From positions 1-35,380 of the forward strand of contig JASHYB010000080.1 in the NCBI GenBank assembly GCA_030043255.1: a stretch of DNA of 35,380 bases, read 5' to 3'. The notes below the pieces were generated by a model that worked only from the letters and a program-made list of their open reading frames with translations, was not told the DNA's origin and did no database searches. Origin of the DNA: Thermoplasmata archaeon. Lineage in GTDB: Archaea; Thermoplasmatota; Thermoplasmata; Lutacidiplasmatales; UBA184. A program made the position numbers and the translations under genes. This document shows positions 2,424 through 26,615 of this stretch, piece by piece (the first letter of the stretch is position 1; each line of letters opens with the position of its first letter).

Positions 2424-2609
2424 TCAGGGCCGGTCGGCGTACCGCCCGACGAGCCCGAAGCCGAGGCCTCCGACCAGCACGCCCAGCAGGACCCAGAGCC
2501 CGCCCGGCCAGAGCTCGGAGAGCGACAGCAGGCCGAACTGCTGGAACAGGAGCACGACGACCCCGCCCAGGATCGCGCCGGAGCCCGCGGTCGACCCGGC
2601 GGCCCTCAT
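2424..2609 (-). CDS. small membrane protein with two predicted TM helices
   Basis: The 61-aa ORF has strong GC3 bias and two hydrophobic stretches (ILGGVVVLLF, LWVLLGVLVGGLGFGLV). Its ATG overlaps the stop of the upstream gene (ATGA at 2606-2609). Confidence 0.6.
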   Translation of the reverse strand: MRAAGSTAGSGAILGGVVVLLFQQFGLLSLSELWPGGLWVLLGVLVGGLGFGLVGRYADRP

Positions 2610-3235
2610 CGCGAGCCGGTCCCTCCCCGCCGGCGGGCGCGCGCCCGGACGACCACGACGATCCAGTAGGCCTCGGCGACCGCCAGCACGAGCCCGAAGA
2701 CGGCGATCGCCGAGCCGATGACGAACGGGGCTTGGAGCTCCACGTAGAACGCCTCGGAGAACACCAGGCTACCGTTCCCGTCCGTCAGCTGCGCGAGGAT
2801 CTCGTAGACCCCTTGCAGGACCCCGTTCAGCGAACCGATCGACCAGTTCAGCTCGGCCGTTCCCGCTCCGCCGGAAGCCGAGGGGATCGCGGCCTCGGTC
2901 GAGAGCGTGAGCCCGAGGAAGCGGAGGAGCAGCGAGGCGTTCGCCGGCACGGCGTCGCTCGCGGCGTCGCGGTAGGCAAACTCCACGATGGCCGTACTGC
3001 CGGACGCGAGCGGGAAGGCGTTCACCACCGTACTCGCGACGGAGATTGGGGTCCCGTCCCAAGTCACCGTGACCTCCAGTCCGGAGCCCGAAGCGGCCGT
3101 CGTCCGTGTCGCGAAGTCCGTCCCCCTCTCCGAGACGCTGGTGGTGTGCGTCGACGAGCCGACCAGAAGCCCGGCGAGGGCGATCAGCCCCACGAGCGTG
3201 ACGGCGGGCCGAAGGCTTCCCCGTTCCGGGCGCAT
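2606..3235 (-). CDS. membrane-anchored extracytoplasmic protein, function unknown
   Basis: The 209-aa ORF has an N-terminal signal/TM segment (VTLVGLIALAGLLVG), a Thr/Ser/Ala-rich beta-type middle region, and a C-terminal TM helix (FVIGSAIAVFGLVLAVAEAYWIVVVV) followed by an Arg-rich tail. A TATA-like box lies about 29 nt upstream of the ATG. Confidence 0.7.
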   Translation of the reverse strand: MRPERGSLRPAVTLVGLIALAGLLVGSSTHTTSVSERGTDFATRTTAASGSGLEVTVTWDGTPISVASTVVNAFPLASGSTAIVEFAYRDAASDAVPANASLLLRFLGLTLSTEAAIPSASGGAGTAELNWSIGSLNGVLQGVYEILAQLTDGNGSLVFSEAFYVELQAPFVIGSAIAVFGLVLAVAEAYWIVVVVRARARRRGGTGSR

Positions 3236-3288: not shown

Positions 3289-6200
3289 CTACGGGGACGA
3301 CGCGTCCGGCGGCGGACCGGACTCTCCCTGCGGGGCGGCAGCGGGCGAGTCCCCGGCGCCGCTGTCGGCTGGGGGGCTCGGGTCGGCCGAGCCGGTGGCG
3401 CCGGCTTCGGAGGATTCGGTGCCCGTGCTGGCGGGCGAGGACTTGGGGGGCGGGACCGGGCGTTCCTCCGCGCCGCTCTCCTCCTCGGGCGCGGCGGAGT
3501 CGCCCGGCGAGACCTCGGGGACCGGTACGGCTTCCTCGGGGGACCGAGCTTCGGGTGCCGGAGAGACCGGTTCTCCGGGCTCGACGAAAGGTGTCGCGGC
3601 ATGCGGGCCCCCGGTCTCCGCCTCCGATACCGACGCCACAGGGCTTGCGGAGCCCGCCTCCGACCCCGCGGATGACGAGCTCTCGGGCACCCTCTCCGGG
3701 CTGTTGGCCGACATCACCCCGGTTTCGGCCTCGGGAACGGACACTCCTGCGTCCCCCGGACCTGCCTCAGCCGCCGGTGCGGGTGAGTCGCCGGGACCGG
3801 CGTCGGGCAGGGGGGCTGTCGCGTTCTCTTTCGGAGCGTCAGGCGCCGAACCGGCCAACCCACCGGCTTCGCCCTCGGCGGAGCCCGGCGCTTCGCCGTC
3901 GGCCCCGGGCTCAGTCGCGGCGCCGGCTAGTTCCCCGCTTCCGATCTCCGCCGTGGGCGGGGATGCTTCGCCTGAGCCCGCCTCCGCTCCTGGTGCGGGC
4001 AGAACATCGGGCCCCGCGGCGGCCACCGGTCCGGTCTCCTCCGTGGTCGCACCTCCGGGCGCCGCGACGTCCGTCGCGCCGGGGGCAGCTTCGGAGGTCG
4101 CGAGCGGGGCGCTGCCCGGCTCGTCCTCCGTAGCGATGTGGGTCCCCTTCTCGTCTTCCGCCGCAGCGTCCGGGCCGGTGAGAACGACGGGCTCGATCGC
4201 GGTCGCGGCAGGTATCTCGGCGCCAGCCGGAGGCGCCGGCTCCGCGACGCCCCCGGTGCTCCCCTGCGGGGACGGAAGACCGAGGTCGGAGACGAACCGG
4301 TCCAGCTCGGTCGGCGTCAGCAGCCCGGGGGTCAGGTGCAGCCAGGCCCGCGCCTCGTGCTCGCGCGCCTGGCGGTCCAGCTCCTTCAGGAACGCCACGA
4401 CCGCCTCGCTCCCGTGGATCCGGGTGAGGTACTCCGTCCCCTCGAGGAAGACGGCGGTGATGCCGCTGCTCTCGAGGCCCTGCCGAAGGAGGTCGGCCAG
4501 CCCCCTCAGGTCGCTCGGCCGGATCGCCCGGTCGCGGGCCAGGTTGCTGAGCCAGTAGACGGCGACCGGTCGCGGGCCGACGAGCGTGCGGATCCGCTCC
4601 GGCAGCTCCCGAACCACCGCGACCCCGCGGTGCCCCGCCGCGGTCGCTTCGAGGAACGGCTGCAGCGCGGGCAGCAGCGCTTCCGAGAGCTCGACCTCGA
4701 GACCGGCCGCCGGTACCGGCGCCGTCGCGAGCGGCGGGGTCGGCAGGTTCCCGGCGGCGCGGTCCGCTTCGGAGACGAACGCTGGCGCGACCGGGGGAGG
4801 CGGGGGAGGAGGGGCGCGCGCCGGTGGCGGGAGGGGCGCTGGCGGCAGGGGAGCCGGCGCCGCCGGGGGCGTAGGGGCCGGCGGGGGACCGGCAGGAGGG
4901 GCCACGCTCGTCGGCCCCACCGTTGCGGGTGCCGGCGCCGAGAGCTCTGACGTGAGCTCCCGCTCAGGGGTCGGCAGGGCAGGGAGGACAACGCTGACCC
5001 GGGAGAGGTCGTCCAAGGCGCCGGGGGCCTCGACCGCCAGCGCCGTGGGCGCGGCGGGACGGAGAGGAAGCGGTGCGGAGCGAGCGGGGGGCGTCCTGGG
5101 CGTCCGCACCGGTCGCGGCGGCGGAGCGGGGACGTCGCGGCCCAGCTTGGCGAACAGTCGCGCGGCCACCGGCCGGCCGAAGCCCGGCAGGGTCGCGAGC
5201 TCGTCGAACGACGCGGAGCGGATCTCCTCCACGGACGCGTAGCCGGCGTCCCAGGCGATCGCGACCTTGGACGGCCCCAGCAGCGGGGCGTCGAGCAGCT
5301 TGTCGAGCTGCTCGCCGAGCGCCCGCACCGCGTCCTCGTGGCCGATGACCGCGCCGTCGGTGTAGTCGACCTCGGGCCCACCGTCCGGGGTCGGTCGCTG
5401 GCGGATCGGCATCCTCCGGCTCGCGCCGGAGCCGCCGCGCGGCGCGGGGCGCGGGGACTTCGGCGGGCGGCCGAGCAGCCCCGGGATCTCCACCGACCAT
5501 CGGGTCCCGAGCCGGGTCCGGCCGGTGACCGCGGGGGGCACGGACTCCGGTCCGGGGGCGGCGTCGATCGTCAGGCGCGCCACGCCGAGCGCGGCGGCCA
5601 CGGCCGCCCACCGCTCGCGCAGCTCCTTGGCGAGCGGGTCGACGGCGACGATGCGCACGGCAAGGGCCCGCGACGCCTCCGGACCGACCCGGCGCAACCG
5701 GCGCCCGACGCGTCGGACCAGCCAGGCGGCGTCCGCCGAGAGCACCGCGCTCGGGCCGCCCGAAGCGGCCGCGCCGGTCGCCGGCACCTCCGCGTACATC
5801 TCGCCGAGGCCGAACGCCACCGGGACGACCCGGTCGGGGAGCGTCTCGACGAGCGCGAGCATGGACGGCGTGATCTGGTGCGGCTGGCCCTGGACGAAGA
5901 CCGAGAACCCCCGAGCGGTCTCCTGCTCGCCGGGCCGACGCGGCGGGGTCCGCTTCAGCAGGTACAGGATCTGCGTCGCCAGCGTGGGATAGGCCTTCTG
6001 GATCTCGCTCTCCACCGGGACCAGCTGGCGCCGCCGGCCCTCCCACGGGGTGCGGGGGCTGCCGACCTCGAGCCGGCCGATGCGGGCGAGCCGCTCGAGC
6101 AGGCTCCGGTCCCCGCGGAGCTGGTCCCCGAGCTGGTCGTCGGTGACGACCAGCGCCACCAGCGGTACCAGGGTCCCCGGGGCGAGGTGGCGCTCCGTGC

Positions 6201-8415
6201 GGAAGCGGTCGACCGCCCGCACGACGGCGACCCAGCGCTCCCAGGCCTCGCCGAACGCCTCGTCCGCCGGCGCGTGCTCGACGTCGAACGGCTCCGTCTC
6301 GAACAGACTGCGCGGGTCCGGGCGCAGCGTCCGCACCACCGCCTCGGCGGTGAACGGTGCGACCGGCGCGAGCGCCGTGGCCAGCTGCGCCAACACCGAG
6401 CCGAGGGTGCGGAGGGCGGCCCTTCGGCCGGCCGGCGGTTCGCCGGCGGCCAAGCGCGGCCGGACGATCTCCCGGTAGCGCGCCAGGTCGACCTCCAGGA
6501 ACCGGGCGAGCCGGCGGTGCGCTTCGCCCGCGCGGAACTCGTCGTAGGCGGCCAGGACCTTCAGCTCCGTCGCCGACCAGCGCGCCAGCAGGGCGCGGTC
6601 CTCCGGCTGGAGCTCGCGGTCGTTCGGGCTGAGCGTCGCGCCGAGGGTGCCGGCCGCCTCCCGCTCGAGCGCCGCCGCGGTCGAGGCCGCCAGCTCCGCG
6701 AGCCGGGCGAAGCGGCGCCGCTCCTGCCGGCAGCGCTCGACGAACGAGCCGCCGGGGCCTTCGCTCGAGTCCAGGCGCACGAACGCCGCCCGGACCGCGT
6801 CCGCCCCGTGCTCGGCGACCAGCCCCACGACGTCCACGTCGCTGACCGTCGGCAGGATCGTCGCCTGCAGCTCCGCCACCCGTGCCCCGGCGCCGGCCAT
6901 CGCCGCGAGCAGGTGCACGATCGTCGGCGCCCGTCGGCGCTCGCTGATGTACAGGCGCACCGGCTCGCCGGACGGCAGCGGCGCGAGGCGCGCCCAGGCG
7001 CCGAACGCCCCGGCGACCGACGGCACCAACCGTCGGGCGACCGGCCGGCGCTTGCCCCCGCAGGGACAGCTCGTCGGTCCGTCCGGCGCATCCAGCCTCG
7101 GGCAGCGCTCGCACTCGAGCAGCGTGACCGCTTCCGGCGCGTCGCTCGTGCGGGTCTCGCTCACCGGCCAGGCGGTCAGCTCGATCTGCGCGACCGGCCG
7201 GTCCCCCGGCAGCAGCGCGGCGTACTGGGCCAGCTGCTCGGCCGGCAGGCGGCCGGGCTCCAGGCACCAGCAGCGGCCGGGGGTCCAGACGACCGGGCGC
7301 CCGCAGACCCCGCAGTACGGGACCCCTCGCAGGACCCGCAGCCGGGCGAGGACGCTACCGCCCTCGGTCAGGTCCCGCGCGACGAACTCCGTCGCGGTCT
7401 CGAGGTCGAGGCCGGAGTACTTGTGCATCAGCGTCAGCTCGAGGGTCCCGTGGATCGTCAGCAGCGGCCAGCCGTGGACGCCGAGACGTTCGGCGATCTG
7501 CGCGTCGGTCCCGCCGTGGCCGGGGACCAGCGGCACGACGCCGGTCCCGCTGTCGCCGACCTCCGGGACCGCCTGGATCGTACCGGAGGGCGCCGCGAGC
7601 GACGCGCCGTCCGGGAACTCGTGCCGGAGCGGGTAGACGTAGCGCCGGCCCGTGTAGGCGCGCCCCGGCTTCTCGGCGAGCACCGTCAATTCCGCGCCGG
7701 GGAGCCAAGCCCGCAGTCGGTCGATGGAGGAACGGAGGATCAGCAGACGGGCCTCGACGTCGCCCCGGCGGTACTGGACCGTCGCGTAGGCGAGATCCGG
7801 GTTCATCAGCAGCGCGGTCGTGCCGAGCAGCCGCCACGGCGCGTCGACCCAGGCGAGCGCCTCCACCGGCTCCTCGCCGGCCACCGGCTCCAGCGGGAAC
7901 CGGACCAGGAACGTGTCGCCGATCTCCTCGTGGTAGATCGTCCGCTCGGGACTGCGCGGCGCCGCGCAGGACGGACAGAGCCGGATCGGCCCGTCGCCCG
8001 CGACCAGGATCCCCGCCCGCGCGAGCCGGGAGGCGATCGCCTGCACGCCGGCGGTCCGCTCGACGGCGTCGTACGGGCGGCCCCCCTCGCCGCCGGTCCA
8101 GACCGCGAGGGAGCGCAGCAGCGGCGCGACGACCGGGTCTTCGCCGCCCGCCGGCCAGCCTTCACGACGGAGGGTCCCCTCCACGCGTCCGGCCCCGAGC
8201 GCGGTGGCGCGCGCGTCGACGTCGGCGGCGACCGCCCGTTGGGCCACGAGGACCGGCGGGTCGCCGGGGGTGTAGGTCCCTTCGAGCTGCCGCAGGACCG
8301 GCTCCGTACCGTGCCCGAGCACGCCGCCCGGCGGCGGAAGACCGTGGGCCGCCCAGAGCCGCCGGATCTCCTGTTCGACGAGCGCGAAGCTGTGCTCGAC
8401 CTCCGGCTCGCTCAC
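3289..8415 (-). CDS. isoleucyl-tRNA-synthetase-like pseudoenzyme fused to HhH, Pro-rich linker, DUF835-like domain and acidic disordered tail
   Basis: This is track ORF 3289..8505 (1738 aa). I prefer GTG 8415 as the start. The first 30 codons from ATG 8505 have poor GC3, and that ATG would leave only 41 nt to the aIF5A ATG. Class Ia aaRS landmarks seen by eye: FALVEQEIRRLW, LCPSC...YCGVCGRPVVW, ALAWVDAPWRLLGTTALLMNPDLAY, GTGVVPLVPGHGGTD, HGADAVRAAF, and an anticodon-domain-like stretch DRALLARWS...FLEVDLARYREIVRPRL. There is no HIGH or KMSKS motif. The C-terminal part contains FDELATLPGFGRPVAARLF (HhH), a poly-Pro region, and VAVYWLSNLARDRAIRPSDL...AVFLEGTEYLTRIHG (DUF835-like). Confidence 0.85.
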   Translation of the reverse strand: MSEPEVEHSFALVEQEIRRLWAAHGLPPPGGVLGHGTEPVLRQLEGTYTPGDPPVLVAQRAVAADVDARATALGAGRVEGTLRREGWPAGGEDPVVAPLLRSLAVWTGGEGGRPYDAVERTAGVQAIASRLARAGILVAGDGPIRLCPSCAAPRSPERTIYHEEIGDTFLVRFPLEPVAGEEPVEALAWVDAPWRLLGTTALLMNPDLAYATVQYRRGDVEARLLILRSSIDRLRAWLPGAELTVLAEKPGRAYTGRRYVYPLRHEFPDGASLAAPSGTIQAVPEVGDSGTGVVPLVPGHGGTDAQIAERLGVHGWPLLTIHGTLELTLMHKYSGLDLETATEFVARDLTEGGSVLARLRVLRGVPYCGVCGRPVVWTPGRCWCLEPGRLPAEQLAQYAALLPGDRPVAQIELTAWPVSETRTSDAPEAVTLLECERCPRLDAPDGPTSCPCGGKRRPVARRLVPSVAGAFGAWARLAPLPSGEPVRLYISERRRAPTIVHLLAAMAGAGARVAELQATILPTVSDVDVVGLVAEHGADAVRAAFVRLDSSEGPGGSFVERCRQERRRFARLAELAASTAAALEREAAGTLGATLSPNDRELQPEDRALLARWSATELKVLAAYDEFRAGEAHRRLARFLEVDLARYREIVRPRLAAGEPPAGRRAALRTLGSVLAQLATALAPVAPFTAEAVVRTLRPDPRSLFETEPFDVEHAPADEAFGEAWERWVAVVRAVDRFRTERHLAPGTLVPLVALVVTDDQLGDQLRGDRSLLERLARIGRLEVGSPRTPWEGRRRQLVPVESEIQKAYPTLATQILYLLKRTPPRRPGEQETARGFSVFVQGQPHQITPSMLALVETLPDRVVPVAFGLGEMYAEVPATGAAASGGPSAVLSADAAWLVRRVGRRLRRVGPEASRALAVRIVAVDPLAKELRERWAAVAAALGVARLTIDAAPGPESVPPAVTGRTRLGTRWSVEIPGLLGRPPKSPRPAPRGGSGASRRMPIRQRPTPDGGPEVDYTDGAVIGHEDAVRALGEQLDKLLDAPLLGPSKVAIAWDAGYASVEEIRSASFDELATLPGFGRPVAARLFAKLGRDVPAPPPRPVRTPRTPPARSAPLPLRPAAPTALAVEAPGALDDLSRVSVVLPALPTPERELTSELSAPAPATVGPTSVAPPAGPPPAPTPPAAPAPLPPAPLPPPARAPPPPPPPVAPAFVSEADRAAGNLPTPPLATAPVPAAGLEVELSEALLPALQPFLEATAAGHRGVAVVRELPERIRTLVGPRPVAVYWLSNLARDRAIRPSDLRGLADLLRQGLESSGITAVFLEGTEYLTRIHGSEAVVAFLKELDRQAREHEARAWLHLTPGLLTPTELDRFVSDLGLPSPQGSTGGVAEPAPPAGAEIPAATAIEPVVLTGPDAAAEDEKGTHIATEDEPGSAPLATSEAAPGATDVAAPGGATTEETGPVAAAGPDVLPAPGAEAGSGEASPPTAEIGSGELAGAATEPGADGEAPGSAEGEAGGLAGSAPDAPKENATAPLPDAGPGDSPAPAAEAGPGDAGVSVPEAETGVMSANSPERVPESSSSAGSEAGSASPVASVSEAETGGPHAATPFVEPGEPVSPAPEARSPEEAVPVPEVSPGDSAAPEEESGAEERPVPPPKSSPASTGTESSEAGATGSADPSPPADSGAGDSPAAAPQGESGPPPDASSP

Positions 8416-8454
8416 CGCGGGACCCTGCCGACAGCCGGAGAGAGGCGGGCGCGC

Positions 8455-8466
8455 GGGAATAAACCC
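8455..8466 (-). promoter_or_regulatory. TATA-like element for the IleRS-like gene
   Basis: The minus strand reads GGGTTTATTCCC, about 45 nt upstream of GTG 8415. Confidence 0.4.
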
Positions 8467-8505
8467 ATCTCGGCGGCGGCAGGCGTTCGAGGCACCCGAG
8501 CACAA

Positions 8506-8518
8506 CCGTTAAAGAAGG
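8506..8518 (+). promoter_or_regulatory. TATA-like element for aIF5A
   Basis: CCGTTAAAGAAGG is centred about 35 nt upstream of ATG 8547. Confidence 0.45.
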
Positions 8519-8546: not shown

Positions 8547-8933
8547 ATGGCCTGGACGCAGCAGGAGGTCCGCGAGCTCAAGGAAGGCCGCTACCTGCTC
8601 ATCGACGAGGAGCCGTGTCGCATCCTGAGCATCCAGACCTCCAAGCCCGGGAAGCACGGGGAAGCGAAGGCGCGCATCGACGCCGTCGGGCTGTTCGACG
8701 GTTCGAAGCGCAGCGTCGTGTACCCGGTCAAGCACAAGGTCCAGGTCCCGCTGATCGGTAAGCGCCAGGCGCAGGTCCTCTCGCTCAGCGACACCGAGGT
8801 CCAGCTGATGGACCTCGAGTCGTACGAGACCTTCCAGCTCGCGGTCGACGCGGAAGGCCGCGCCGGCCTCGCCCCCGGGGCCGAGGTCCAGTACCTGGAC
8901 GCGATGGGCAAGCGCCGCATCACGCGCGCGTAG
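8547..8933 (+). CDS. eif5a: translation initiation factor 5A (aIF5A)
   Basis: The 128-aa ORF has the hypusination-site motif [14 protein letters not shown] and the typical N-terminal [15 protein letters not shown]. The C-terminal OB-like half ([25 protein letters not shown]) is also present. Confidence 0.96.
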
Positions 8934-8990: not shown

Positions 8991-9003
8991 ATTTATAAGG
9001 AGG
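8991..9003 (+). promoter_or_regulatory. ATTTATAAGGAGG element (TATA box and/or Shine-Dalgarno-like) upstream of the giant repeat gene
   Basis: This is the strongest AT-rich element in the aIF5A to repeat-gene spacer. TTTATAA fits a TATA box and AAGGAGG fits an SD. Confidence 0.5.
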
Positions 9004-9243
9004 CCCGAGCATCGAAGCGGTGTCCGAGCCCTAGCCCGGCCGCCGGGGCGGGCAGACGGTTCAGGGGGGAGAGCGACGTCCGGTCAGGGAGGCCCCGGGC
9101 CTCTCCCGTCGTCCCGCCTGACGCGGATCCTTCAGGAGAAGGCGGAGGCGCTGCGCAAGAAGCGCCAGTCCGCCGAGGCGATCCAGCGGGATGTCGACGA
9201 GCGGCTCGCCCAGCTCGCCCGACTCGGGATCGTCCCGCCGGGC

Positions 9244-12200
9244 GTGGCGGAACGGCAGGAGCAGCTCCGCGAGCTGGCTCGACGGACCGACTGGGAGCTG
9301 CTGGAGACCCAGGCGCGCGCGCTCCTGGATCAACTGGCCACCACCGTGCCGGCGACGATCGAGGGCCGGCGCCGCCACTCGGAGGAGTTCGCGCTCCGGC
9401 TGAGCGCCGGCGGCGTCGCGCTCTCCGCCGCGCTCACCGACGAGCTCGCGGCCCTCGCGCATCCGCCGGACGGAGCCTCCTGGGCGCAGACCCTCTCCCG
9501 CCTCGCGAGCGTCGACGACGGCCTGCGGGCGGCCGCGACCGGCCAGCTCGAGCGGGCGCGCGCGGCGGCGGTCGACCTCGCCCGCTGGGCCGGCGTCACG
9601 CCGGCGCGGCTGACCGAGCTGGAGCGGGCGCTGCCCGACCCGGCGACGGCGGTCCGCGAGGACCGGATCGGCGAGGCGATCGCCACGATCCACCAGATCG
9701 TCGCCGAGCGGTTCCCCGAGGTCGCGGACCGGCGGGAGAAGAGCCGGGCGCTCGCCGGGCGGCTGCGGACGGTCGCCGACGAGCTCGGCGCGTCGACCCA
9801 GTCGCTGGACGAGGCGTTGCACGCCGACGCGGACGCGGCTCCGGAGAGCTGGCCGGCGAGCGTCGCCCGGCTCGAAGGGGCGACCTCCCAGCTCGCGGAG
9901 TCGCTGCGGGGCAAGGCGGCGCAGGCGCTGGACGGGCTGCGGGCCTCGCTCGGCCAGCTCGCCGACTACGGCGTCGATCCGGCGCCGGCCCGCGCGACCG
10001 TCGAGGTCGCGCTCGCGAGGCTGCCGGCCGCCGCGCCGGACGAGATCGCCTCCGTCCTCACCGAGGCGCGGACCGCGGCGGAGGAGCCGATCGTCACCGT
10101 CGTGGCCGGCCTATTGGACGAGGTCCGGCCGCGCATCGTCAGCGCCCGGCGCCTCGGACGGGACCCGCGGGAGGTGTTCGCCGCGATGAACCGGGCCCGC
10201 GAGGCGCTGCGGCTGAAGATCTACTCGGAGGCGCTGGCCGCCAGCCAGGAGGCGCTCGAGAAGGTCCGCGAGCTCACCGCCGACCTGGACACGGCGCGCG
10301 ACGAGCTCGCCTCCGTGGAGGAGATGGTCGGGCGGTTCCGCCGCGTCGGCTACACCTCGCCCGGGGTCGACGCGCAGCTCGCGCGGGTCCGCCACCACCT
10401 CGGCCGCTCCGAGGTCGCGCCGGCCCGCGAGGCGCTGCAGGCGGCGGTCCGGGAGCTCGGCGGCGGGGCGGTCGCGTTCTTCCTGGACCGGTCCCAGGCG
10501 CTCGGCCGGGCGCGCGACTTCGCCCGGGCCAGCGGCTTTCTGCCGGCGGACGTCGACCGGGAGCTGGAGGAGGCCCGCGGCCGGCTGGACGGCGGCGAGC
10601 TCACCGAGGCGGTCGACGCGCTCGCGCGGGCGGAGGTCTCGCTGCGGGTCGCCGCCGCCCCGTTCGTCGCCCGCCGGGTCGAGGAGATGGAGGCGGCGTT
10701 CGCCGACCTCGGCGACGAGGGCCTGGCGACCCCGGTGCGCCGGCACCTCGCCGACGCCGACGTGACGCTGCGCGTCAAGGAGGACCTGCTCGGCGCGCTG
10801 GAGAGCCTGCGCCGGGCCGAGCGGGACTTCGGCGGGGTCTTCTCCTCCCGGGCGTCGTCGCTGGTCGAGGCGCTGGAGGAGGAGGTCCGGGTCCTCGCCT
10901 CCATGGGGGGCGCGGGGGAGGAGATCCAGCGCCAGATCGACGAGGTCCAGCAGATCTTCAACATGGGGGATTTCGTGCGCGCCGCCAAGGCGTCGCAGGA
11001 GATCCGGACCCGGGCGCAGCAGCAGCAGCTGCTCCGCAGCGAGGAGGCGGTCTCCCACGCCAAGCTCTCCCTGGTCGAGCTGGAGGCGATCGGCCTGGAG
11101 GTCGGCGCGATGCGTGCCGAGTTCGACGCCGCCCAGCAGCTCGCGCGCGGCGGCCGGTACCTGGACGCCTACCGGGCCGCGACGCGCCTCGAGGAGGAGG
11201 CGGTCCGGCGCCGGGGCGCCGCGCAGGCGCTCATCGGGCGGATCGGCCGCGTCGAGGCGTTCGCCCAGCGGGTCCGCGCGGCCGGCATCGAGCCCGGGCC
11301 GGTCGACGCGACCGTCGCCGAGGCCCGGGCGGCGGTCCGCTCGCTCGACTTCGAGCGGGCGAAGGGCCTCGCGGAGGCGGCGGAGCAGCGCCTGGTCGCC
11401 GCCGAGGCGCAGCTGGAGACCGCCAAGCGCCTGAGCGAGCTCACGCTCCTGATCGAGGACGGCCGGCGGCTCGGCCTGCCGATGGAGCCGTACGTCGCGC
11501 GGCTCGATCGGCTCCGTACGGAGGCCCCGACCGCCCCCCCCGAGGCGACGCGCGACGGCGCCAAGCGGCTGCACGAGGAGCTGGTCAGCGTCCTGCGCCC
11601 GCTGCTGGAGGAGCACCTGCGGGCGCTGGAGCGGGACCTCGAGGTCGCCCGGGGGGCCGGCGTCCTGCTCGAGCCGGTGGTCTCCAAGGTCGCCGAGGCC
11701 CGTCGCCGCATCTCGCTCGAGGTGCCGACCGGCGCGGCGGTGCTGCTGGACGAGATCCGCAGCGCCCTGGTCACGACCCGGGGCTTCGTCGACCAGGCGG
11801 AGCGGGTCGCCCGGCGCGTCCACGAGGCGGTGGCGCAGTCCGAGCTGCTGCACGTCGACGTCGGGCCGCTGCGCGCCCGCGCCGACGAGGTCGACCGGGC
11901 GCTGGAGGCCCGCGACTACCCGAAGGTCGTCGAGCTCGGCGGGACGGTCGAGCGGGAGCTGAACCAGGGGATCTACCAGCACGTGTCGAAGACCCTCGCC
12001 GGCTTCCAGGCGACGGTCACCCAGGTCCGGCGCGCCGGCGGGAACGCCTCGGTCGCCGAGAACCTGCTGCACCAGGCCCGGATGGCGCTGGACGAGGGGC
12101 GGCCGGTCGAGGCGCTCCAGTTCGCCTCCCGGAGCGAGACGGAGCTGGAACGCGTCGAGCTGCAGCAGCGCCTCGCCGAAGGGGCGCTGGAGGCCGCCGA

Positions 12201-13572
12201 GCGGTCGGTGGAGCGGGCGGTCCGGGACGGGACCGTCGCCACGGAGGCGACCGACGGCCTGCGGACCCTGCGCGAGGCGTACGCGCGGCGCGACTTCGCC
12301 GCGATGTTCGAGCAGGCGATCGTCGTCTCCGAGTCGCTCGCCGGGGCGCGGGAGGGGGCGCGGCGGGCCCGCGAGGCGCTCGCCAACGCCGACCGCCATC
12401 TGGCGGAGGCGACCGCGCTGGGGGCGGACGTGCGCGAGGCCCAGGAGCGGCTCGCCGAGGCCCGGGCGGAGGCGGAGGCCGGTCACTACGTCGCGAGCGT
12501 GCAGGTCGCCCACGAGACCGTCGAGAAGTCCCGCTGGGCGATCGAGCGGATGTTCAGCGTGCCGATCGGCGAGCTCCGCCGGGAGGTCGAGGCGGTCCGG
12601 GCGGAGGGGACCGCCGCGGAGGTCGAGCCGCTGGACGCCGTCGTCTCGGACGCGGAGGCGGCGCTGCGGGCCGGCAGCTGGGCCCGGGTCCGCACGTCGC
12701 TCGCCCGGGCCGACGCGCAGAGCCGCCGCCTCTTCGGGGCGCTGGTCGACGCCCGCTGGCGGGAGATCGACGCGGAGGCGGCCCGCCGCGGGGGCGACAC
12801 CCCGACCGAGCTCGCCCGCCGCAGCGAGCTTCGGGGCCAGCTGGACCGGTTGAAGGAGCGGCGGGACCTCGGCGAGGCGCTGCGCCTGTTGAAGGGGGAG
12901 CTGGAGGCGGTCCGGGCCCGCGAACGGGAGGCGGTCGCCCAGGCGATGGCGGAGTTCCGCGACCGCCTCTGGGTCGGCGAACGCCTCGGGGTCGACACCA
13001 CCCCGGTGATGCAGCGGTTCGGGGAGGCCCGGATCGCGCTGGATGCCGGCCGGTTCACGGAGGCGAGCGCGCTGCTCGAGCGGGCGACCGACGCCCTGGT
13101 CGAGACGGTACGGCCGGCGCTCGCCCGCCGTCGCAAGGAGCTCGCCAGCGAGGTCGCGTTCGCGGAGGGGGGGCTGCACGTGACCGTCGGGCCGGTCAAG
13201 GACCGGCTGCGCGAGGCGGACGAGCTGATCGTCGTCGGCCGGGTCCTGGACGGGGCCCGGATCGTACTGAAGGGGGAGGAGGAGCTCGGCCTGCGCAAGT
13301 CCCTCCACCGGGAGCTGACCAACCTGCACTACCTTTTGGACGCGGGATTGGCGCGCGCCTCCGAGCGGGGGGTCGACACCACCGAGGTCCGGCGCCTGCT
13401 CACCGAGTCGCTCCAGCTGCGCGCGACCGATTATCCGGCGGCGCTGGAACGGGCGCGCGAGGCGCTCCGGCGCCTGCAGCAGCAGGGGGTCCCGGTCAGC
13501 GAGCCCGGCGGGGGCGCTTCGGGCGGGGTCTGGCCGTTCCGCCGCCCTCCCGGGCCGGGCGGCGACGCCTAG
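9244..13572 (+). CDS. giant all-alpha repeat protein (~64-aa helical modules), function unknown
   Basis: The 1442-aa ORF is Ala/Glu/Arg/Leu-rich with strong GC3 bias. A signature A-R-x-A-L-x-x-G-x-aromatic-x-x-A recurs every ~60-65 residues. GTG 9244 is the first canonical start, but coding-like sequence continues upstream to about 9118 (see findings). Confidence 0.85.
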   Translation: MAERQEQLRELARRTDWELLETQARALLDQLATTVPATIEGRRRHSEEFALRLSAGGVALSAALTDELAALAHPPDGASWAQTLSRLASVDDGLRAAATGQLERARAAAVDLARWAGVTPARLTELERALPDPATAVREDRIGEAIATIHQIVAERFPEVADRREKSRALAGRLRTVADELGASTQSLDEALHADADAAPESWPASVARLEGATSQLAESLRGKAAQALDGLRASLGQLADYGVDPAPARATVEVALARLPAAAPDEIASVLTEARTAAEEPIVTVVAGLLDEVRPRIVSARRLGRDPREVFAAMNRAREALRLKIYSEALAASQEALEKVRELTADLDTARDELASVEEMVGRFRRVGYTSPGVDAQLARVRHHLGRSEVAPAREALQAAVRELGGGAVAFFLDRSQALGRARDFARASGFLPADVDRELEEARGRLDGGELTEAVDALARAEVSLRVAAAPFVARRVEEMEAAFADLGDEGLATPVRRHLADADVTLRVKEDLLGALESLRRAERDFGGVFSSRASSLVEALEEEVRVLASMGGAGEEIQRQIDEVQQIFNMGDFVRAAKASQEIRTRAQQQQLLRSEEAVSHAKLSLVELEAIGLEVGAMRAEFDAAQQLARGGRYLDAYRAATRLEEEAVRRRGAAQALIGRIGRVEAFAQRVRAAGIEPGPVDATVAEARAAVRSLDFERAKGLAEAAEQRLVAAEAQLETAKRLSELTLLIEDGRRLGLPMEPYVARLDRLRTEAPTAPPEATRDGAKRLHEELVSVLRPLLEEHLRALERDLEVARGAGVLLEPVVSKVAEARRRISLEVPTGAAVLLDEIRSALVTTRGFVDQAERVARRVHEAVAQSELLHVDVGPLRARADEVDRALEARDYPKVVELGGTVERELNQGIYQHVSKTLAGFQATVTQVRRAGGNASVAENLLHQARMALDEGRPVEALQFASRSETELERVELQQRLAEGALEAAERSVERAVRDGTVATEATDGLRTLREAYARRDFAAMFEQAIVVSESLAGAREGARRAREALANADRHLAEATALGADVREAQERLAEARAEAEAGHYVASVQVAHETVEKSRWAIERMFSVPIGELRREVEAVRAEGTAAEVEPLDAVVSDAEAALRAGSWARVRTSLARADAQSRRLFGALVDARWREIDAEAARRGGDTPTELARRSELRGQLDRLKERRDLGEALRLLKGELEAVRAREREAVAQAMAEFRDRLWVGERLGVDTTPVMQRFGEARIALDAGRFTEASALLERATDALVETVRPALARRRKELASEVAFAEGGLHVTVGPVKDRLREADELIVVGRVLDGARIVLKGEEELGLRKSLHRELTNLHYLLDAGLARASERGVDTTEVRRLLTESLQLRATDYPAALERAREALRRLQQQGVPVSEPGGGASGGVWPFRRPPGPGGDA

Positions 13573-14048
13573 GTCCGCGGGAAGCCGCCGACGATCCCGA
13601 CCCCGACGGGGGTGGGCGGGGAGCGCGGAGGTCCTAGGGGCAGCCGGTCGTACTCCACGGAGTGGCGGATACCGCGGCGCCGGAGCATCTGCGAAACGTG
13701 CTCGGTGATCTGCACCACCTCCTGGCAGCGCGACGGCTTGGCGAAGTACATCTCCACCCGACGCTCGTCGGCGAGCGGGAAGATCAGTCGCAGCCCGAAC
13801 GGGTCCTGCCGGTTGTAGCCGACCGGCTTGCGGTTGCCCTTGAGGTCCCGCAGGTTCTCGTCCAGCAGCACCTCCGGCAGCAGCGGGTCCGCTTCCCGGA
13901 CGAACGGCCGGTTCATCTCGACGACCCGCTTGTGGATCTCCGGGTACACCCGGAGGAGGTCCCGGTAGTCGCGCTTGGGTTCGAGCAGGATGTGCCCGCT
14001 GCGGGCCTTCACCGGGGCGCTCACGCCGCTCGTAGCCCGTCCCCGCAC
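13569..14048 (-). CDS. hypothetical protein
   Basis: The 159-aa ORF has balanced, non-shadow composition (HILLEPKRDYRDLLRVYPEIHKRVVEMNRPFVREADPLLPEVLLDENLRDLKGNRKPVGYNRQDPFGLRLIFPL...). I did not recognise a family. The start is GTG 14048 or an internal GTG. Its stop overlaps the stop of the convergent gene. Confidence 0.65.
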   Translation of the reverse strand: MRGRATSGVSAPVKARSGHILLEPKRDYRDLLRVYPEIHKRVVEMNRPFVREADPLLPEVLLDENLRDLKGNRKPVGYNRQDPFGLRLIFPLADERRVEMYFAKPSRCQEVVQITEHVSQMLRRRGIRHSVEYDRLPLGPPRSPPTPVGVGIVGGFPRT

Positions 14049-14147
14049 TTAGGTTCTCGCGCGGAGCCGCTCCGGGGCCTCCAGGGAACCGTGACGGCCG
14101 TCCCAGAGGAGCAAGGTTCAAGGGCGACGCCCCTTAGCGGGGCGGGC

Positions 14148-14249
14148 GCTCCCGTAGTCTAGTGGTCAAGGATAGAGGCCTCTCGAGCCTCTGACGCGGG
14201 TTCAAAAGGGGCCGGCCGGCGCCGACCCCGGAAACTCCCGCCGGGAGCA
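14148..14249 (+). tRNA. tRNA-Glu (anticodon CUC) with a ~29-nt intron in the T-loop
   Basis: Folded by hand. The acceptor stem GCTCCCG (14148-54) pairs with CGGGAGC (14242-48) over a perfect 7 bp. U8 is present, and the D-arm is GTCT/AGTGGTCAA/GGAT. The anticodon stem GAGGC/GCCTC carries loop CTCTCGA, giving anticodon CTC. T-stem GCGGG (14196-200) pairs with CCCGC (14237-41), but 36 nt lie between them instead of 7. The discriminator is A 14249, and CCA is not encoded. Confidence 0.8.
14207..14235 (+). other. putative non-canonical tRNA intron (position ~59/60 in the T-loop)
   Basis: Removing AGGGGCCGGCCGGCGCCGACCCCGGAAAC restores a canonical T-arm GCGGG-TTCAAAT-CCCGC. The exact splice junctions are ambiguous by 1-2 nt. 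The insert has a GGGG...CCCC helix. Confidence 0.6.
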
Positions 14250-14266
14250 CCTTGCCCGTCGGGCAC

Positions 14267-14294
14267 GCTGGGTCCGCTGGGTCCGCTTTGGTCC
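14267..14294 (+). repeat. short tandem direct repeat downstream of the tRNA
   Basis: GCTGGGTCC GCTGGGTCC GCTTTGGTCC, read directly from the sequence. Confidence 0.7.
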
Positions 14295-14392
14295 GACGGA
14301 TGGGGCAGGCCGTCCACGACTCTTTCGGGGCCGGGAGGTCACGGGGAAGCAAGTAACTCCCGAGGGGTTCGTAGGGTCCGTTTTCCTCAAGG

Positions 14393-14402
14393 TTCTTATA
14401 GG
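14393..14402 (+). promoter_or_regulatory. TATA-like box for the substrate-binding-protein gene, followed by an SD-like GGTGGGAGG at 14433-14441
   Basis: TTCTTATAGG is an AT-rich island in GC-rich DNA about 50 nt upstream of ATG 14451. The GGTGGGAGG ends 9 nt before the ATG. Confidence 0.5.
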
Positions 14403-14450
14403 GGTAACCTCTCTCCCCCGCAGACCCGACAAGGTGGGAGGGTCAAATCG

Positions 14451-17735: not shown

Positions 17736-17760
17736 ACCCGAGCCCGGGTCCAGGTCCAAC

Positions 17761-17785
17761 CCTTTCCTCCCTTTTCTTCTTCTTC
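17761..17785 (+). terminator. pyrimidine/T-rich tract after the SBP gene, followed by a hairpin at 17826-17845
   Basis: The tract cctttcctcccttttcttcttcttc begins 26 nt after the stop. The hairpin is AACGGGCC-cgtc-GGCCCGTT. Oligo-T tracts act as archaeal terminators. Confidence 0.5.
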
Positions 17786-17880
17786 GGGCAGGGACGAACT
17801 CCGGCCTCGGCAGATTAGATAGCTAAACGGGCCCGTCGGCCCGTTCTCGGCGGTCCGGCGTGCCGTTCCCCACGAAGGGT

Positions 17881-17890
17881 GTTTATATCG
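17881..17890 (+). promoter_or_regulatory. TATA-like box upstream of the first permease gene
   Basis: GTTTATATCG lies about 50 nt upstream of ATG 17935, and an SD-like GGGAGG lies at 17893-17898. Confidence 0.45.
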
Positions 17891-17934
17891 CCGGGAGGTT
17901 CGGGTTACCGTCCCGCTGCCGGGATCGCACGACC

Positions 17935-19254: not shown

Positions 19255-19264
19255 GGGGGGTCGG

Positions 19265-22451: not shown

Positions 22452-22558
22452 CGTCGCAGCGCGGCGACGGTCGACCCACCTGGAACGGCGCCCGGTGCCT
22501 GGAACGAGGTCATATCCGCCGCCGCCCTCCCGGGGGCGGAACCCACGAACGCCCGGCT

Positions 22559-22579
22559 CCTATTTAGAACTTAAATAGG
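22559..22579. promoter_or_regulatory. AT-rich imperfect palindrome in the divergent intergenic region
   Basis: CCTATTTAGAACTTAAATAGG is the only AT-rich island in the 285-nt spacer. It may act as a TATA element in either direction or as an operator. Confidence 0.4.
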
Positions 22580-25185: not shown

Positions 25186-25466
25186 GGGTTCCGGGGTCGA
25201 AGAACGGGGGCTCACTATAACCCTTCGCGGAGCGCGGCGGGTCCCGCCCGGTGCGCCGGCGTCCCGGCCGAGGCCGGGGGCCCGCGCCGAAGAGCTGCCC
25301 TCCGTCTCCCGCCCGGTCCTTCCCGCGCCGTGGACCCGGTCCGGCCCCTGCCGGGGCCCGGGCCAGCGAGAAGGGGGTGCCTGCCAGGGCTGGGCCAGAC
25401 GCTCCCCCGCCAGGGTCCGAGAGGCACTTGGTATCCCTGCCGGAGACGGTAACCTTTGGCTGAAGG

Positions 25467-25475
25467 TTTTAATAT
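25467..25475 (+). promoter_or_regulatory. TATA box for the Asn-rich protein gene
   Basis: TTTTAATAT is centred about 36 nt upstream of ATG 25507. An SD-like AGGTGGG lies at 25497-25503. Confidence 0.5.
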
Positions 25476-25506
25476 GGGTATGTCATGGGCACGCACAGGT
25501 GGGCTG

Positions 25507-26592: not shown

Positions 26593-26615
26593 GCGGGACC
26601 CAGCTGAAAGGCACC

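What the first reader, a model, noticed from the sequence alone, without database searches (positions are those of the whole stretch)
3289..8415. Full-length IleRS paralog without HIGH or KMSKS, fused to a ~750-aa non-synthetase C-terminal extension
By eye, the first ~950 residues follow archaeal IleRS from the N-terminal helix to the C-terminal domain:
- The zinc knuckles are LCPSC and YCGVCGRPVVW (compare CPRC ... CWRC.tP).
- The CP1 segment is ALAWVDAPWRLLGTTALLMNPDLAY.
- GTGVVPLVPGHGGTD is present, and there is a second Cys cluster ECERCP...SCPCGG.
- HGADAVRAAF corresponds to yGADalR.
- The anticodon-domain helices are DRALLARWSATELKVLAAYDEFRAGEAHRRLARFLEVDLARYREIVRPRL.

Where HIGH should be (nt 8221-8280) the sequence is GTYTPGDPPVLVAQRAVAAD, with no His. 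Where KMSKS should be (nt 6826-6873) it is VAELQATILPTVSDVDVVGL. This protein therefore almost certainly cannot activate isoleucine, and the real ileS must lie elsewhere in the genome.

The scaffold is fused to four further elements:
- a helix-hairpin-helix (5140-5223);
- a ~140-aa proline-rich linker;
- a DUF835-like domain;
- a ~330-aa acidic tail.

I know of no described aaRS-like protein with this architecture. A retained tRNA-shaped binding scaffold attached to a signalling or assembly-type domain could be a new translation-linked regulator or tRNA-sensing device.
Basis: partly seen in the sequence, partly recalled or inferred. Interest (0 to 1): 0.85.

Follow-up and report, generated by a model that had tools for sequence, protein, structure and literature searches.

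The report
Dead isoleucyl-tRNA synthetase fused to KaiC-like domain
This gene encodes a full-length copy of the enzyme that loads isoleucine onto tRNA, but it has lost every catalytic motif, stays fused to a signalling-type (inactivated KaiC/RecA) domain, and is conserved under selection in over 100 soil archaeal species, so it probably now works as a binding or adaptor protein.

Summary
Window 3289-8415 (-) encodes a 1708-aa protein. Its first ~985 residues have the complete IleRS fold: Foldseek E 1e-45 to type-2 IleRS, and both zinc clusters are invariant.

The catalytic elements are gone:
- HIGH is LVAQ.
- The DMHGLPIE segment and the KMSKS loop are deleted.
- DQxRGW is (E/D)RRR.
- The editing Thr-rich and His residues are replaced.

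Downstream come an (HhH)2 domain, a Pro-rich linker, a DUF835 domain (modelled as a Walker-A-less RecA/KaiC fold) and an acidic tail.

The gene is not an assembly artefact or a pseudogene. At least 100 GTDB species of high-GC soil Thermoplasmata (the hosts include UBA184, the Lutacidiplasmatales reference genome) carry it. dN/dS is 0.07-0.17 in the synthetase body and 0.03-0.11 in DUF835.

The architecture itself is not new. Catalytically intact IleRS-HhH-DUF835 fusions are common in Methanomassiliicoccales, including cultured M. luminyensis. The window family is the most degenerate branch of a clade of decayed fused paralogues.

CP1 and its zinc knuckle are the best-conserved parts. aIF5A lies divergently upstream in 75/75 loci, but only in this lineage.

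Most likely this is a non-catalytic RNA/tRNA-binding adaptor. I could not locate the hosts' working ileS.

The parts
3289..8415 (-). CDS of the 1708-aa pseudo-IleRS-HhH-DUF835 protein (GTG start at 8415; the stop codon is included at 3289-3291)
8011..8415 (-). Residues 1-135: N-terminal helix and first half of the former Rossmann catalytic fold. The HIGH position is PPVLVAQ (aa 52-58, nt 8242-8262). The DMHGLPIE segment of canonical IleRS is deleted.
7216..8010 (-). Residues 136-400: CP1 (editing-type) domain flanked by the zinc knuckle CxxC...CxxC (C147, C150, C368, C371). This is the most conserved part of the family. The editing Thr-rich peptide WTTTPW is WVDAPW, the editing His is Pro, and the editing Asp is kept (D304).
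7021..7215 (-). Residues 401-465: insertion carrying the second zinc cluster ECxxC...CxCGG (C435, C438, C450, C452).
6781..7020 (-). Residues 466-545: second half of the former Rossmann fold. DQTRGW is replaced by E-R-R-R (R493 and R494 invariant). The KMSKS loop is deleted just before PTVSDVDVVGLVAEHGADAVRA.
6181..6615 (-). Residues 601-745: helical anticodon-binding domain (Pfam Anticodon_1).
5461..6180 (-). Residues 746-985: C-terminal junction and tRNA-binding-type domain of archaeal/type-2 IleRS.
5140..5301 (-). Residues 1039-1092: (HhH)2 domain. It is preceded by a short basic spacer (net charge +6 here, family median +7).
4711..5118 (-). Residues ~1100-1235: Pro/Ala-rich disordered linker. 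It is short and neutral here. In most relatives it has a median length of 380 aa and a net charge near -51.
4261..4680 (-). Residues ~1246-1385: DUF835 domain, a truncated RecA/KaiC-like fold without a Walker A motif (AAGHRGVAVV).
3289..4260 (-). Residues 1386-1708: acidic low-complexity tail (net charge -50). It is present in only 4 of 109 relatives.
8457..8465 (-). Conserved TATA-like box GGTTTATTC, 42-50 nt upstream of the start codon.
8508..8513 (+). AT-rich box on the aIF5A side of the 131-bp divergent intergenic region. The equivalent position is conserved as (G/T)ATAA in relatives.
8547..8933 (+). aIF5A (128 aa), transcribed divergently. It is adjacent in 75 of 75 related loci that have enough upstream sequence.
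2606..3235 (-). 209-aa protein with N- and C-terminal hydrophobic, TM-like segments (read by eye, no TM predictor run), directly downstream. It is conserved in this position (28-41% identity).
2424..2609 (-). 61-aa hydrophobic protein that overlaps the previous gene by 4 nt. An equivalent 60-82-aa gene follows in relatives.
8992..13572 (+). 1526-aa protein with no family match, co-directional with aIF5A. It is conserved in this position (36-58% identity).

Best explanation
The gene encodes a catalytically dead, full-length descendant of isoleucyl-tRNA synthetase (a pseudo-synthetase).

Origin (inferred from the evidence below): it descends from the IleRS-(HhH)2-DUF835 fusion enzymes that are widespread in Methanomassiliicoccales and related Thermoplasmata. 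One copy of that fused gene lost aminoacylation. It also lost the canonical editing residues.

What was kept under purifying selection:
- the IleRS-shaped scaffold with both zinc sites;
- a highly conserved CP1 domain;
- the anticodon-binding and C-terminal tRNA-binding-type domains;
- the HhH domain;
- the inactivated KaiC/RecA-like DUF835 domain, joined by a long disordered tether.

Inferred mechanism:
- The scaffold still binds a tRNA-shaped ligand. tRNA-Ile or another RNA is the most likely ligand.
- The tethered DUF835 module docks it onto, or oligomerises it with, a KaiC/RecA-type assembly.
- The protein therefore acts as a non-catalytic sensor or adaptor. It preserves the second, non-enzymatic role that the fusion had in the ancestral bifunctional enzyme.

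Shown: the fold, the motif loss, the fusion, conservation and selection, the relation to intact fusions, and the gene context.

Inferred: ligand binding, docking to KaiC-type partners, and the existence of a separate working IleRS in the same cells.
For: Fold:
- The AF2 model (pLDDT 82.9) matches type-2 IleRS 8c9d/8c8v at E 1e-45, TM 0.61, over the full length. Yeast and T. thermophilus IleRS come next, and ValRS and LeuRS score lower.

Motif loss in every member examined, including the 38%-identity subgroup:
- HIGH is LVAQ.
- The DMHGLPIE segment is absent.
- DQTRGW is (E/D)RRR.
- The KMSKS loop is absent.
- WTTTPW is W(V/T)D(A/V)PW.
- The editing His is Pro or Gly.
- There is no PF00133 hit, and TIGR00392 scores 91 bits against a cut-off of 621.

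Family and selection:
- 160 clusters at 90% identity share the architecture.
- At least 100 GTDB species carry it, all 'Thermoplasmata archaeon' MAGs with 63-78% GC, including UBA184.
- dN/dS is 0.07-0.17 in the body, 0.03-0.11 in DUF835 and about 0.5 in the linker.
- CP1 plus the zinc knuckle has 31-38% of columns at least 95% conserved, against 11-15% in the other folded domains.

Relation to intact fusions:
- The family profile scores fused IleRS bodies at 224-262 bits, above the best unfused IleRS at 190 bits.
- Intact PF00133 + HHH_5 + DUF835 proteins are common, including in M. luminyensis.
- An NJ tree places the family inside a clade of partly degenerate fused paralogues.

DUF835:
- The model (pLDDT 90) matches FlaH, KaiC, RadA and PH0284.
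- DUF835 is listed as an inactivated-KaiC output domain of archaeal response regulators (PMC5847659).
Against: - No binding of tRNA or of any partner was tested, and none can be tested here.
- The anticodon-binding and C-terminal domains are less conserved than CP1. The functional centre may therefore not be tRNA recognition.
- I could not find a canonical ileS in any genome that carries this protein. Contig-length, WGS-prefix and accession-proximity matching all failed. Subfunctionalisation beside a working IleRS is therefore inferred, not shown.
- The NJ grouping with the other degenerate paralogues could be long-branch attraction.
- No KaiC-like ATPase gene is seen in the conserved neighbourhood.
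- 13 of 106 members lack the acidic disordered segment, so that segment is not essential.
Confidence: 0.55

Rival explanations
1. The CP1 domain is still an enzyme. The protein would be a trans-acting hydrolase or editing factor, or would carry out some other chemistry on an aminoacyl- or modified 3' end. It would use a remodelled CP1 pocket, with the rest of the synthetase body serving only to hold the tRNA.
For: - CP1 and its zinc knuckle are the most conserved region. The family has dense invariant motifs there: PLRHEFP, GTG(V/I)VPLVPGHG, GWPL, HKY(S/A)GLD and RDL.
- The Asp that anchors the substrate amino group in IleRS editing (assignment from my own knowledge) is retained, as D304.
- dN/dS in CP1 is 0.065-0.108, usually the lowest or among the lowest within the body.
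Against: - The canonical hydrolytic residues are replaced throughout the family. The Thr-rich peptide is V-D-A and the conserved His is Pro or Gly.
- I know of no free-standing or repurposed class-I CP1 enzyme (own knowledge).
- High conservation is equally expected for a binding surface.
Confidence: 0.12
2. The tRNA-shaped cleft binds aIF5A, which is an L-shaped tRNA mimic, instead of tRNA. The protein would then be a chaperone, modifier-recruiter or regulator of aIF5A. This would be analogous to the LysRS paralogue PoxA/EpmA, which recognises EF-P.
For: - aIF5A is the divergent neighbour in 75/75 loci with enough sequence, including members only 38% identical.
- The short intergenic region has conserved back-to-back AT-rich boxes.
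- The EF-P/PoxA precedent for an aaRS paralogue acting on the bacterial aIF5A homologue comes from my own knowledge.
Against: - The linkage is confined to one lineage. None of the 80 loci of intact or less degenerate fused relatives has aIF5A within 5 kb, and neither does M. luminyensis.
- A block of about six genes is syntenic, so the adjacency may be inherited gene order.
- aIF5A itself is ordinary: NF003076 at 181 bits, with the GKHG hypusine-site motif visible in the sequence (sequence).
Confidence: 0.1
3. It is the housekeeping IleRS after all, working with non-canonical motifs.
For: - I did not find another IleRS in any host genome. The searches gave no IleRS on the 1.7-2.3 Mb host contigs among their top 120 hits.
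- The gene is universal in the lineage and under purifying selection.
Against: - Every element that contacts ATP, the amino acid or the adenylate is replaced or deleted, including whole loop deletions.
- TIGR00392 scores 91 bits against a cut-off of 621, and there is no PF00133 hit.
- The former catalytic halves are among the least conserved folded parts.
- My failure to find a second ileS reflects the limits of the tools (top-120 lists, capped look-ups). It is not a genome-wide negative.
Confidence: 0.02
4. It is an assembly chimera, a frameshifted read-through or a decaying pseudogene.
For: The codon-position GC signal is weaker over the tail at 3300-4200. The tail is present in only 4 of 109 relatives.
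Against: - The same domain order is found on independent contigs from NCBI, ENA, JGI and Logan in more than 100 species.
- dN/dS is well below 1 in every folded domain.
- Three close relatives carry equivalent tails of 243-331 aa with net charge -51 to -61.
Confidence: 0.01

Closest known systems
IleRS-(HhH)-DUF835 fusion enzymes of Methanomassiliicoccales/Thermoplasmata (e.g. Methanomassiliicoccus luminyensis 'isoleucine--tRNA ligase', 1301 aa, P0431)
   Same: - The domain order is the same: IleRS body, optional HhH, disordered linker, C-terminal DUF835.
- The DUF835 motifs are recognisably homologous (WLSN..GR...RP.DL, EG.EYL).
- The family profile scores these bodies higher than unfused IleRS.
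   Different: - Those proteins keep the H(I/L/V)G(T/H), DMHGLPIE, WTTTPW, DQTRGW and xM(S/H)KS motifs and hit PF00133. The window family has lost all of them.
- They are not next to aIF5A.
- Body identity between the two groups is low. The closest measured proxy is about 15% to solved type-2 IleRS.
Partly degenerate fused paralogues in low-GC Thermoplasmatota (P0198, P0200, P0201, P0205, P0207 and others)
   Same: They have the same architecture, have lost some catalytic motifs, and group with the window family in the NJ tree.
   Different: - They still keep DMHG, and often WTTTPW or HVGH. Degeneration is partial and varies between members.
- They have low GC, and no aIF5A neighbour was seen in any of the 80 loci, which include L161, L167, L174, L176 and L178.
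Canonical archaeal / type-2 IleRS (PDB 8c8v, 8c9d, 1ile, 8wnd; TIGR00392)
   Same: The overall fold, both zinc clusters, the CP1 insertion, the anticodon-binding helices and the C-terminal domain are shared.
   Different: There are no catalytic or canonical editing residues. Sequence identity is 15-20%. The protein carries a ~720-aa C-terminal extension.
Non-catalytic aaRS paralogues such as HisZ (a HisRS-like regulatory subunit of ATP-PRT) and the LysRS-like PoxA/EpmA acting on EF-P (own knowledge)
   Same: The concept is the same: an aaRS scaffold is retained for binding or regulation, or for acting on a tRNA mimic, and not for charging tRNA.
   Different: - Those are class II, consist of the catalytic core only, and are much smaller.
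- They are not fused to a KaiC-like domain.
- Here the complete class Ia multidomain body is retained. No homology is implied.
DUF835 / 'iKaiC' output domains of archaeal response regulators (REC-DUF835; PMC5847659)
   Same: PF05763 scores above its gathering threshold. The fold is RecA/KaiC-like and lacks a Walker A motif.
   Different: The domain is attached to a dead synthetase through HhH and a long disordered linker, instead of to a receiver domain.

Membership tests
Isoleucyl-tRNA synthetase (class Ia; TIGR00392 / PF00133) | Overall multidomain fold: Rossmann core split by CP1, anticodon-binding helices and a C-terminal domain | tested here: met
   Foldseek E 1e-45 and TM 0.61 to 8c9d/8c8v over the full length.
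Isoleucyl-tRNA synthetase (class Ia; TIGR00392 / PF00133) | HIGH signature (H-x-G-H/T in archaea) | tested here: not met
   LVAQ at aa 55-58. There is no His in any family member aligned.
Isoleucyl-tRNA synthetase (class Ia; TIGR00392 / PF00133) | KMSKS loop | tested here: not met
   The loop is deleted before PTVSDVDV...GADAVRA in all tier-1 members.
Isoleucyl-tRNA synthetase (class Ia; TIGR00392 / PF00133) | Amino-acid/adenylate pocket motifs (G-x-D-M-H-G-L-P-I-E; D-Q-x-R-G-W-F) | tested here: not met
   The first is deleted and the second is replaced by (E/D)RRR.
Isoleucyl-tRNA synthetase (class Ia; TIGR00392 / PF00133) | Score above the curated family cut-off | tested here: not met
   TIGR00392 scores 91.1 bits against 621.4. 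PF00133 gives no hit at E<=1.
Isoleucyl-tRNA synthetase (class Ia; TIGR00392 / PF00133) | CP1 editing residues (Thr-rich WTTTPW, GTGxVH His, Asp) | tested here: not met
   WVDAPW and GTGVVP replace the first two. Only the Asp (D304) is kept.
Isoleucyl-tRNA synthetase (class Ia; TIGR00392 / PF00133) | Ile activation and tRNA-Ile charging | not testable with these tools
   This needs biochemistry.
IleRS-HhH-DUF835 fusion clade of Thermoplasmata | Domain order: IleRS body, (HhH), linker, C-terminal DUF835 | tested here: met
IleRS-HhH-DUF835 fusion clade of Thermoplasmata | Synthetase body closer to fused than to unfused IleRS | tested here: met
   Profile scores are 224-262 bits for fused bodies against at most 190 for unfused. 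NJ placement agrees, but that tree is rough.
DUF835 (PF05763; 'iKaiC') | Pfam model above the gathering score | tested here: met
   46 bits for the whole protein and 51.8 for the domain alone, against a cut-off of 33.1. All 18 of 18 members hit.
DUF835 (PF05763; 'iKaiC') | RecA/KaiC-type fold lacking the Walker A P-loop | tested here: met
   The model (pLDDT 90.4) matches FlaH 4yds, KaiC, RadA and PH0284 at TM 0.54-0.65. The sequence has AAGHRG in place of GxxxxGK[ST].
Helix-hairpin-helix (HHH_5, PF14520) | Pfam model above the gathering score | tested here: met
   29.6 bits against 27. It resembles the eL32 N-terminal, Hel308, PolX and RadA HhH domains.
Regulatory or adaptor pseudo-aaRS (HisZ-like concept) | Binds a partner or ligand and regulates it without catalysis | not testable with these tools
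   Supported only indirectly, by motif loss combined with purifying selection.

The most novel reading that the evidence does not exclude
A whole class Ia synthetase body has been converted into a ligand-sensing module. Its conserved CP1/tRNA cleft would read the state of a tRNA, or of the tRNA-mimic aIF5A encoded next door. It would pass that information through a tethered inactivated-KaiC domain to an archaeal KaiC-type signalling hub. That would be a previously undescribed translation-to-signalling device, whose ancestral form is still embedded in the working IleRS of Methanomassiliicoccales.
Probability: 0.12. Interest if true: 0.85.

Novelty: new variant of a known kind. Interest (0 to 1): 0.6.

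Why it matters
- Catalytically dead aaRS paralogues that survive as regulators are known, but I know of none that retains the full multidomain body of a class Ia enzyme (own knowledge).
- Here a complete IleRS body has lost both of its active sites. It is still kept under purifying selection in an entire order-level lineage of abundant soil archaea, welded to a KaiC/RecA-like signalling domain.
- This implies that the IleRS-DUF835 fusion found in Methanomassiliicoccales has a second, non-enzymatic job. That job is important enough to survive the loss of catalysis.
- The dead paralogue offers a natural separation-of-function allele for finding out what that job is.
- There is also an annotation problem. 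Some partly degenerate relatives are labelled 'isoleucine--tRNA ligase' in public records, which may miscount aaRS complements in MAG-based metabolic reconstructions.

Tried and rejected
1. Finding the hosts' working ileS. I searched with two high-GC Thermoplasmata IleRS (P0230, P0295) and looked for clusters whose longest contig equals a host contig (1,714,801; 2,307,657; 1,808,284; 435,173 and others). There was no real match. The one equal length (13,997) turned out to be two different contigs.
2. Matching assembly or WGS prefixes of canonical IleRS to the 80 host loci. The prefixes tried were DATMKA01, JAJPHT01, JAWAQE01, JAXDQU01 and JAXAXI01. None matched.
3. The NCBI accession-proximity trick. 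No pair was found.
4. tblastn of canonical IleRS against all fetched loci. No ileS lies within the flanks held around any paralogue (about 3 kb for most loci, up to 10 kb for L001-L004).
5. Exact look-up of the window protein to identify its assembly. It is not on record.
6. A sequence search of the DUF835 profile against PDB. It gave only spurious repeat-protein hits. The fold had to be obtained by modelling.
7. Pfam and NCBIfam on the conserved neighbours: the 1526-aa, 159-aa, 209-aa and 61-aa proteins. Nothing significant came back.
8. The literature. No paper in the held library describes an IleRS-DUF835 fusion or this paralogue. The Makarova 2017 KaiC-hub paper is not held.
9. I considered and rejected the aIF5A adjacency as strong functional evidence once it proved absent from all 80 loci of relatives outside this family.
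Full report
**1. The observation**

The minus-strand ORF 3289..8505 is the longest in the region. The window is about 73% GC, so long chance ORFs are expected. The codon-position signal settles the frame: third-position GC is 0.89-0.99 from 4200 to 8400 and falls to about 0.8 over 3300-4200, where the product is low-complexity.

The GTG at 8415 is the probable start. Homologues begin there. A conserved TATA-like box, GGTTTATTC, lies at 8457-8465, inside the upstream part of the open frame.

The product is 1708 aa.
- Pfam finds Anticodon_1 (606-748, 3e-15), HHH_5 (1039-1088, 1e-6) and DUF835 (1260-1372, 6e-12), but not tRNA-synt_1.
- NCBIfam finds ileS over the CP1 region (129-386, 5e-26) and valS/ileS over 528-807. 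The scores are about 90 bits against cut-offs above 600.
- phmmer against PDB sequences aligns CP1 and the anticodon domain to T. thermophilus IleRS at 5e-21.

**2. It is a whole IleRS body**

A 19-sequence alignment of residues 1-985 (A1) gave an AlphaFold2 model with pLDDT 82.9 and pTM 0.74.

Foldseek against the PDB returns Priestia megaterium type-2 IleRS as the best match. That is the entry with the fully resolved C-terminal tRNA-binding domain, and it matches at E 1e-45 and TM 0.61 over about 1100 aligned columns. Yeast, T. thermophilus, H. pylori and S. aureus IleRS follow. ValRS and LeuRS score clearly lower.

The profile of A1 against PDB sequences also ranks IleRS2 first, at 8.5e-37. 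Eight cysteines forming the two IleRS zinc clusters are invariant.

**3. Both active sites are gone**

I aligned canonical archaeal IleRS, intact fused IleRS, partly degenerate fused proteins and this family. Canonical and intact fused enzymes share these motifs:
- H(I/L/M/V)G(T/Q);
- GxDMHGLPIE;
- WTTTPW;
- TGxVHxAPGHGxED;
- HCWRC;
- DQTRGWF;
- xM(S/H)KS.

In the window family, including a subgroup only 38% identical to the window protein:
- the HIGH position reads LVAQ or similar, without His;
- the DMHGLPIE segment is absent;
- DQTRGW is (E/D)RRR, with two invariant arginines;
- the KMSKS loop is deleted;
- the Thr-rich editing peptide is W(V/T)D(A/V)PW;
- the editing His is Pro or Gly;
- only the editing Asp (D304) survives.

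The same applies to canonical post-transfer editing.

**4. It is a real, selected gene family**

The word-indexed search found 160 clusters (90% identity). The 120 listed are 47-72% identical and mostly 1340-1745 aa. Nearly all listed members carry Anticodon_1 and DUF835; a few shorter or partial entries lack the DUF835 hit. They come from NCBI, ENA, JGI and Logan assemblies.

A scan of one genome per GTDB species found 100 loci and kept 80. All are 'Thermoplasmata archaeon' MAGs from soils and peat, with 63-78% GC. They include UBA61 and UBA184. UBA184 belongs to the order Lutacidiplasmatales (TMEG). These are uncultured soil archaea with about 69% GC that form a clade with Methanomassiliicoccales (PMC9287336).

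For five pairs of related genes, NG86 dN/dS values are:

| Region | dN/dS |
|---|---|
| Synthetase body | 0.07-0.17 |
| DUF835 | 0.03-0.11 |
| HhH | 0.04-0.33 |
| Linker | about 0.5 |

Misassembly, frameshift fusion and pseudogene decay are excluded for the fusion as a whole.

**5. The architecture is not new; the degeneration is**

An exhaustive HMMER search of 1.84 billion representatives with the A1 profile gave three tiers:
- this family, above 560 bits;
- proteins of 1200-2330 aa, at roughly 160-260 bits;
- ordinary IleRS of about 950-1120 aa, at or below 190 bits.

The middle tier consists of IleRS-HhH-linker-DUF835 fusions from lower-GC Thermoplasmatota. Some keep HIGH-type and KMSKS-type motifs (P0195, P0199, P0204). 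Others have lost one or both (P0198, P0200, P0201, P0205, P0207).

Searches with canonical Thermoplasmata IleRS showed that intact PF00133 + Anticodon_1 + HHH_5 + DUF835 proteins of 1300-1460 aa are common in Methanomassiliicoccales. They include the RefSeq 'isoleucine--tRNA ligase' of cultured Methanomassiliicoccus luminyensis B10.

A metagenome scan returned 80 more fused loci. At least 63 of them have intact motifs, and several have 66-70% GC.

A rough neighbour-joining tree places the window family inside a clade of the partly degenerate fused proteins. That clade is sister to the intact Thermoplasmata IleRS, both fused and unfused. Long-branch attraction cannot be excluded.

The simplest history is that the fusion came first and a copy of it then progressively lost catalysis. 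The Lutacidiplasmatales-type family would be the end point.

**6. The C-terminal module**

The HhH region resembles the N-terminal (HhH)2 of haloarchaeal eL32, Hel308 domain 5, PolX and the RadA N-terminal domain.

The DUF835 profile has no sequence relative in the PDB. Its model (pLDDT 90.4) matches FlaH/ArlH, KaiC, RadA and the RecA-superfamily ATPase PH0284 at TM 0.54-0.65. The sequence lacks a Walker A motif (AAGHRG). This agrees with the published labelling of DUF835 as an inactivated KaiC-like ('iKaiC') output domain of archaeal response regulators (PMC5847659).

HhH followed by a RecA-type core is also the RadA/Rad51 layout (own knowledge).

Between HhH and DUF835 most members carry a disordered linker with a median length of 380 aa and a median net charge of -51. 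The window protein and three close relatives instead have a short, neutral, Pro-rich linker and an acidic tail of net charge -50 to -61 after DUF835. Thirteen of 106 members have no acidic segment at all.

**7. Where the constraint lies**

Within the body, CP1 and its zinc knuckle are the most conserved. There, 31-38% of columns are at least 95% conserved. The figure is 11-15% for the former Rossmann halves, the anticodon-binding domain and the C-terminal domain, and 25% for the second zinc insertion.

Family-specific invariant motifs cluster in CP1: PLRHEFP, GTG(V/I)VPLVPGHG, GWPL, HKY(S/A)GLD and RDL. This points to CP1 as a functional centre, either as a binding pocket or, less likely, as a new catalytic site.

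**8. Context**

aIF5A (8547-8933, NF003076 at 181 bits) is divergently transcribed. The 131-bp intergenic region carries conserved back-to-back AT-rich boxes. aIF5A occupies this position in 75 of 75 species loci that have enough upstream sequence.

The conserved block contains:
- a 151-163-aa protein of unknown family;
- a 1100-1500-aa protein of unknown family, co-directional with aIF5A;
- aIF5A;
- the paralogue;
- a 209-258-aa protein with terminal hydrophobic, TM-like segments;
- an overlapping 60-82-aa hydrophobic protein.

The block is seen. None of the 80 loci of relatives outside this family has aIF5A within 5 kb, and neither does M. luminyensis. The aIF5A linkage is therefore lineage-specific and may be inherited synteny.

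**9. What I could not establish**

I did not find the hosts' working IleRS. The following all failed:
- contig-length matching to the 1.7-2.3 Mb host contigs;
- WGS-prefix matching;
- accession-proximity matching;
- tblastn of the fetched loci.

The failures are limits of top-120 lists and capped look-ups, not a genome-wide negative. Because the losses include loop deletions, I still rate the housekeeping reading at about 2%.

**10. Verdict**

The protein is a pseudo-IleRS that has preserved the non-catalytic half of a bifunctional IleRS-DUF835 enzyme. The most probable role is a non-catalytic RNA/tRNA-binding adaptor, tethered to a KaiC/RecA-type interaction domain.

Two rivals stand at roughly 10% each: a repurposed CP1 enzyme and an aIF5A-binding factor.

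I rate it a new variant of a known kind, namely aaRS-derived pseudoenzymes and the database-known IleRS-DUF835 fusion. Interest is moderate to high.

Noticed in passing
window 14148-14224 (+): Rfam calls a tRNA here (32.7 bits against a gathering score of 29), but ARAGORN finds none. The anticodon loop CUCUCGA suggests Glu(CUC). The acceptor stem has two mismatches and the T-loop has an insertion. It overlaps the start of the ORF 14163-17735.
   Followed up: partly
window 14000-20000 and 25000-27000: GC drops to 0.65-0.68, against 0.72-0.78 elsewhere. The first stretch holds an Opp-type ABC transporter operon (BPD_transp_1 x2; the oligo_HPY/ABC_tran ATPase lies just beyond it at 20616-22559, where GC is already ~0.71). 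This may be laterally acquired DNA.
   Followed up: no
window 938/1262-2395 (+): An ORF with HTH_23/HTH_29/HTH_32 domains, which I recall as typical of IS630-type transposase N-termini. It lies immediately beyond the end of the paralogue operon and may mark the edge of the conserved block.
   Followed up: no
window 13569-14048 (-): A 159-aa protein with no Pfam or NCBIfam match that is 79-82% identical across hosts whose paralogues are only about 50% identical. It is a very conserved unknown that sits in the same syntenic block.
   Followed up: partly
window 8992-13572 (+): A 1526-aa protein with no family match (only faint spectrin/COG6-like helical hits). It is co-directional with aIF5A and present in 73 of the 80 related loci. 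In L001 it is split into two genes of 1127 aa and 374 aa.
   Followed up: partly
window 3289-4260 versus 4711-5118 (-): The acidic disordered segment (net charge about -50) sits after DUF835 in this protein and three close relatives. In most family members it sits between HhH and DUF835. The charge is conserved while the position is not.
   Followed up: yes
L001 1404-2363 and L002 1-29: An archaeal D-aminoacyl-tRNA deacylase gene (PF04414) lies within 10 kb of the paralogue in two distant hosts. It is not present in the window itself.
   Followed up: no
proteins P0201, P0205 (public records MCK4757139.1, MBA3046026.1): Fused relatives that lack HIGH and/or KMSKS are named 'isoleucine--tRNA ligase' in GenBank. 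This is a likely over-annotation.
   Followed up: partly
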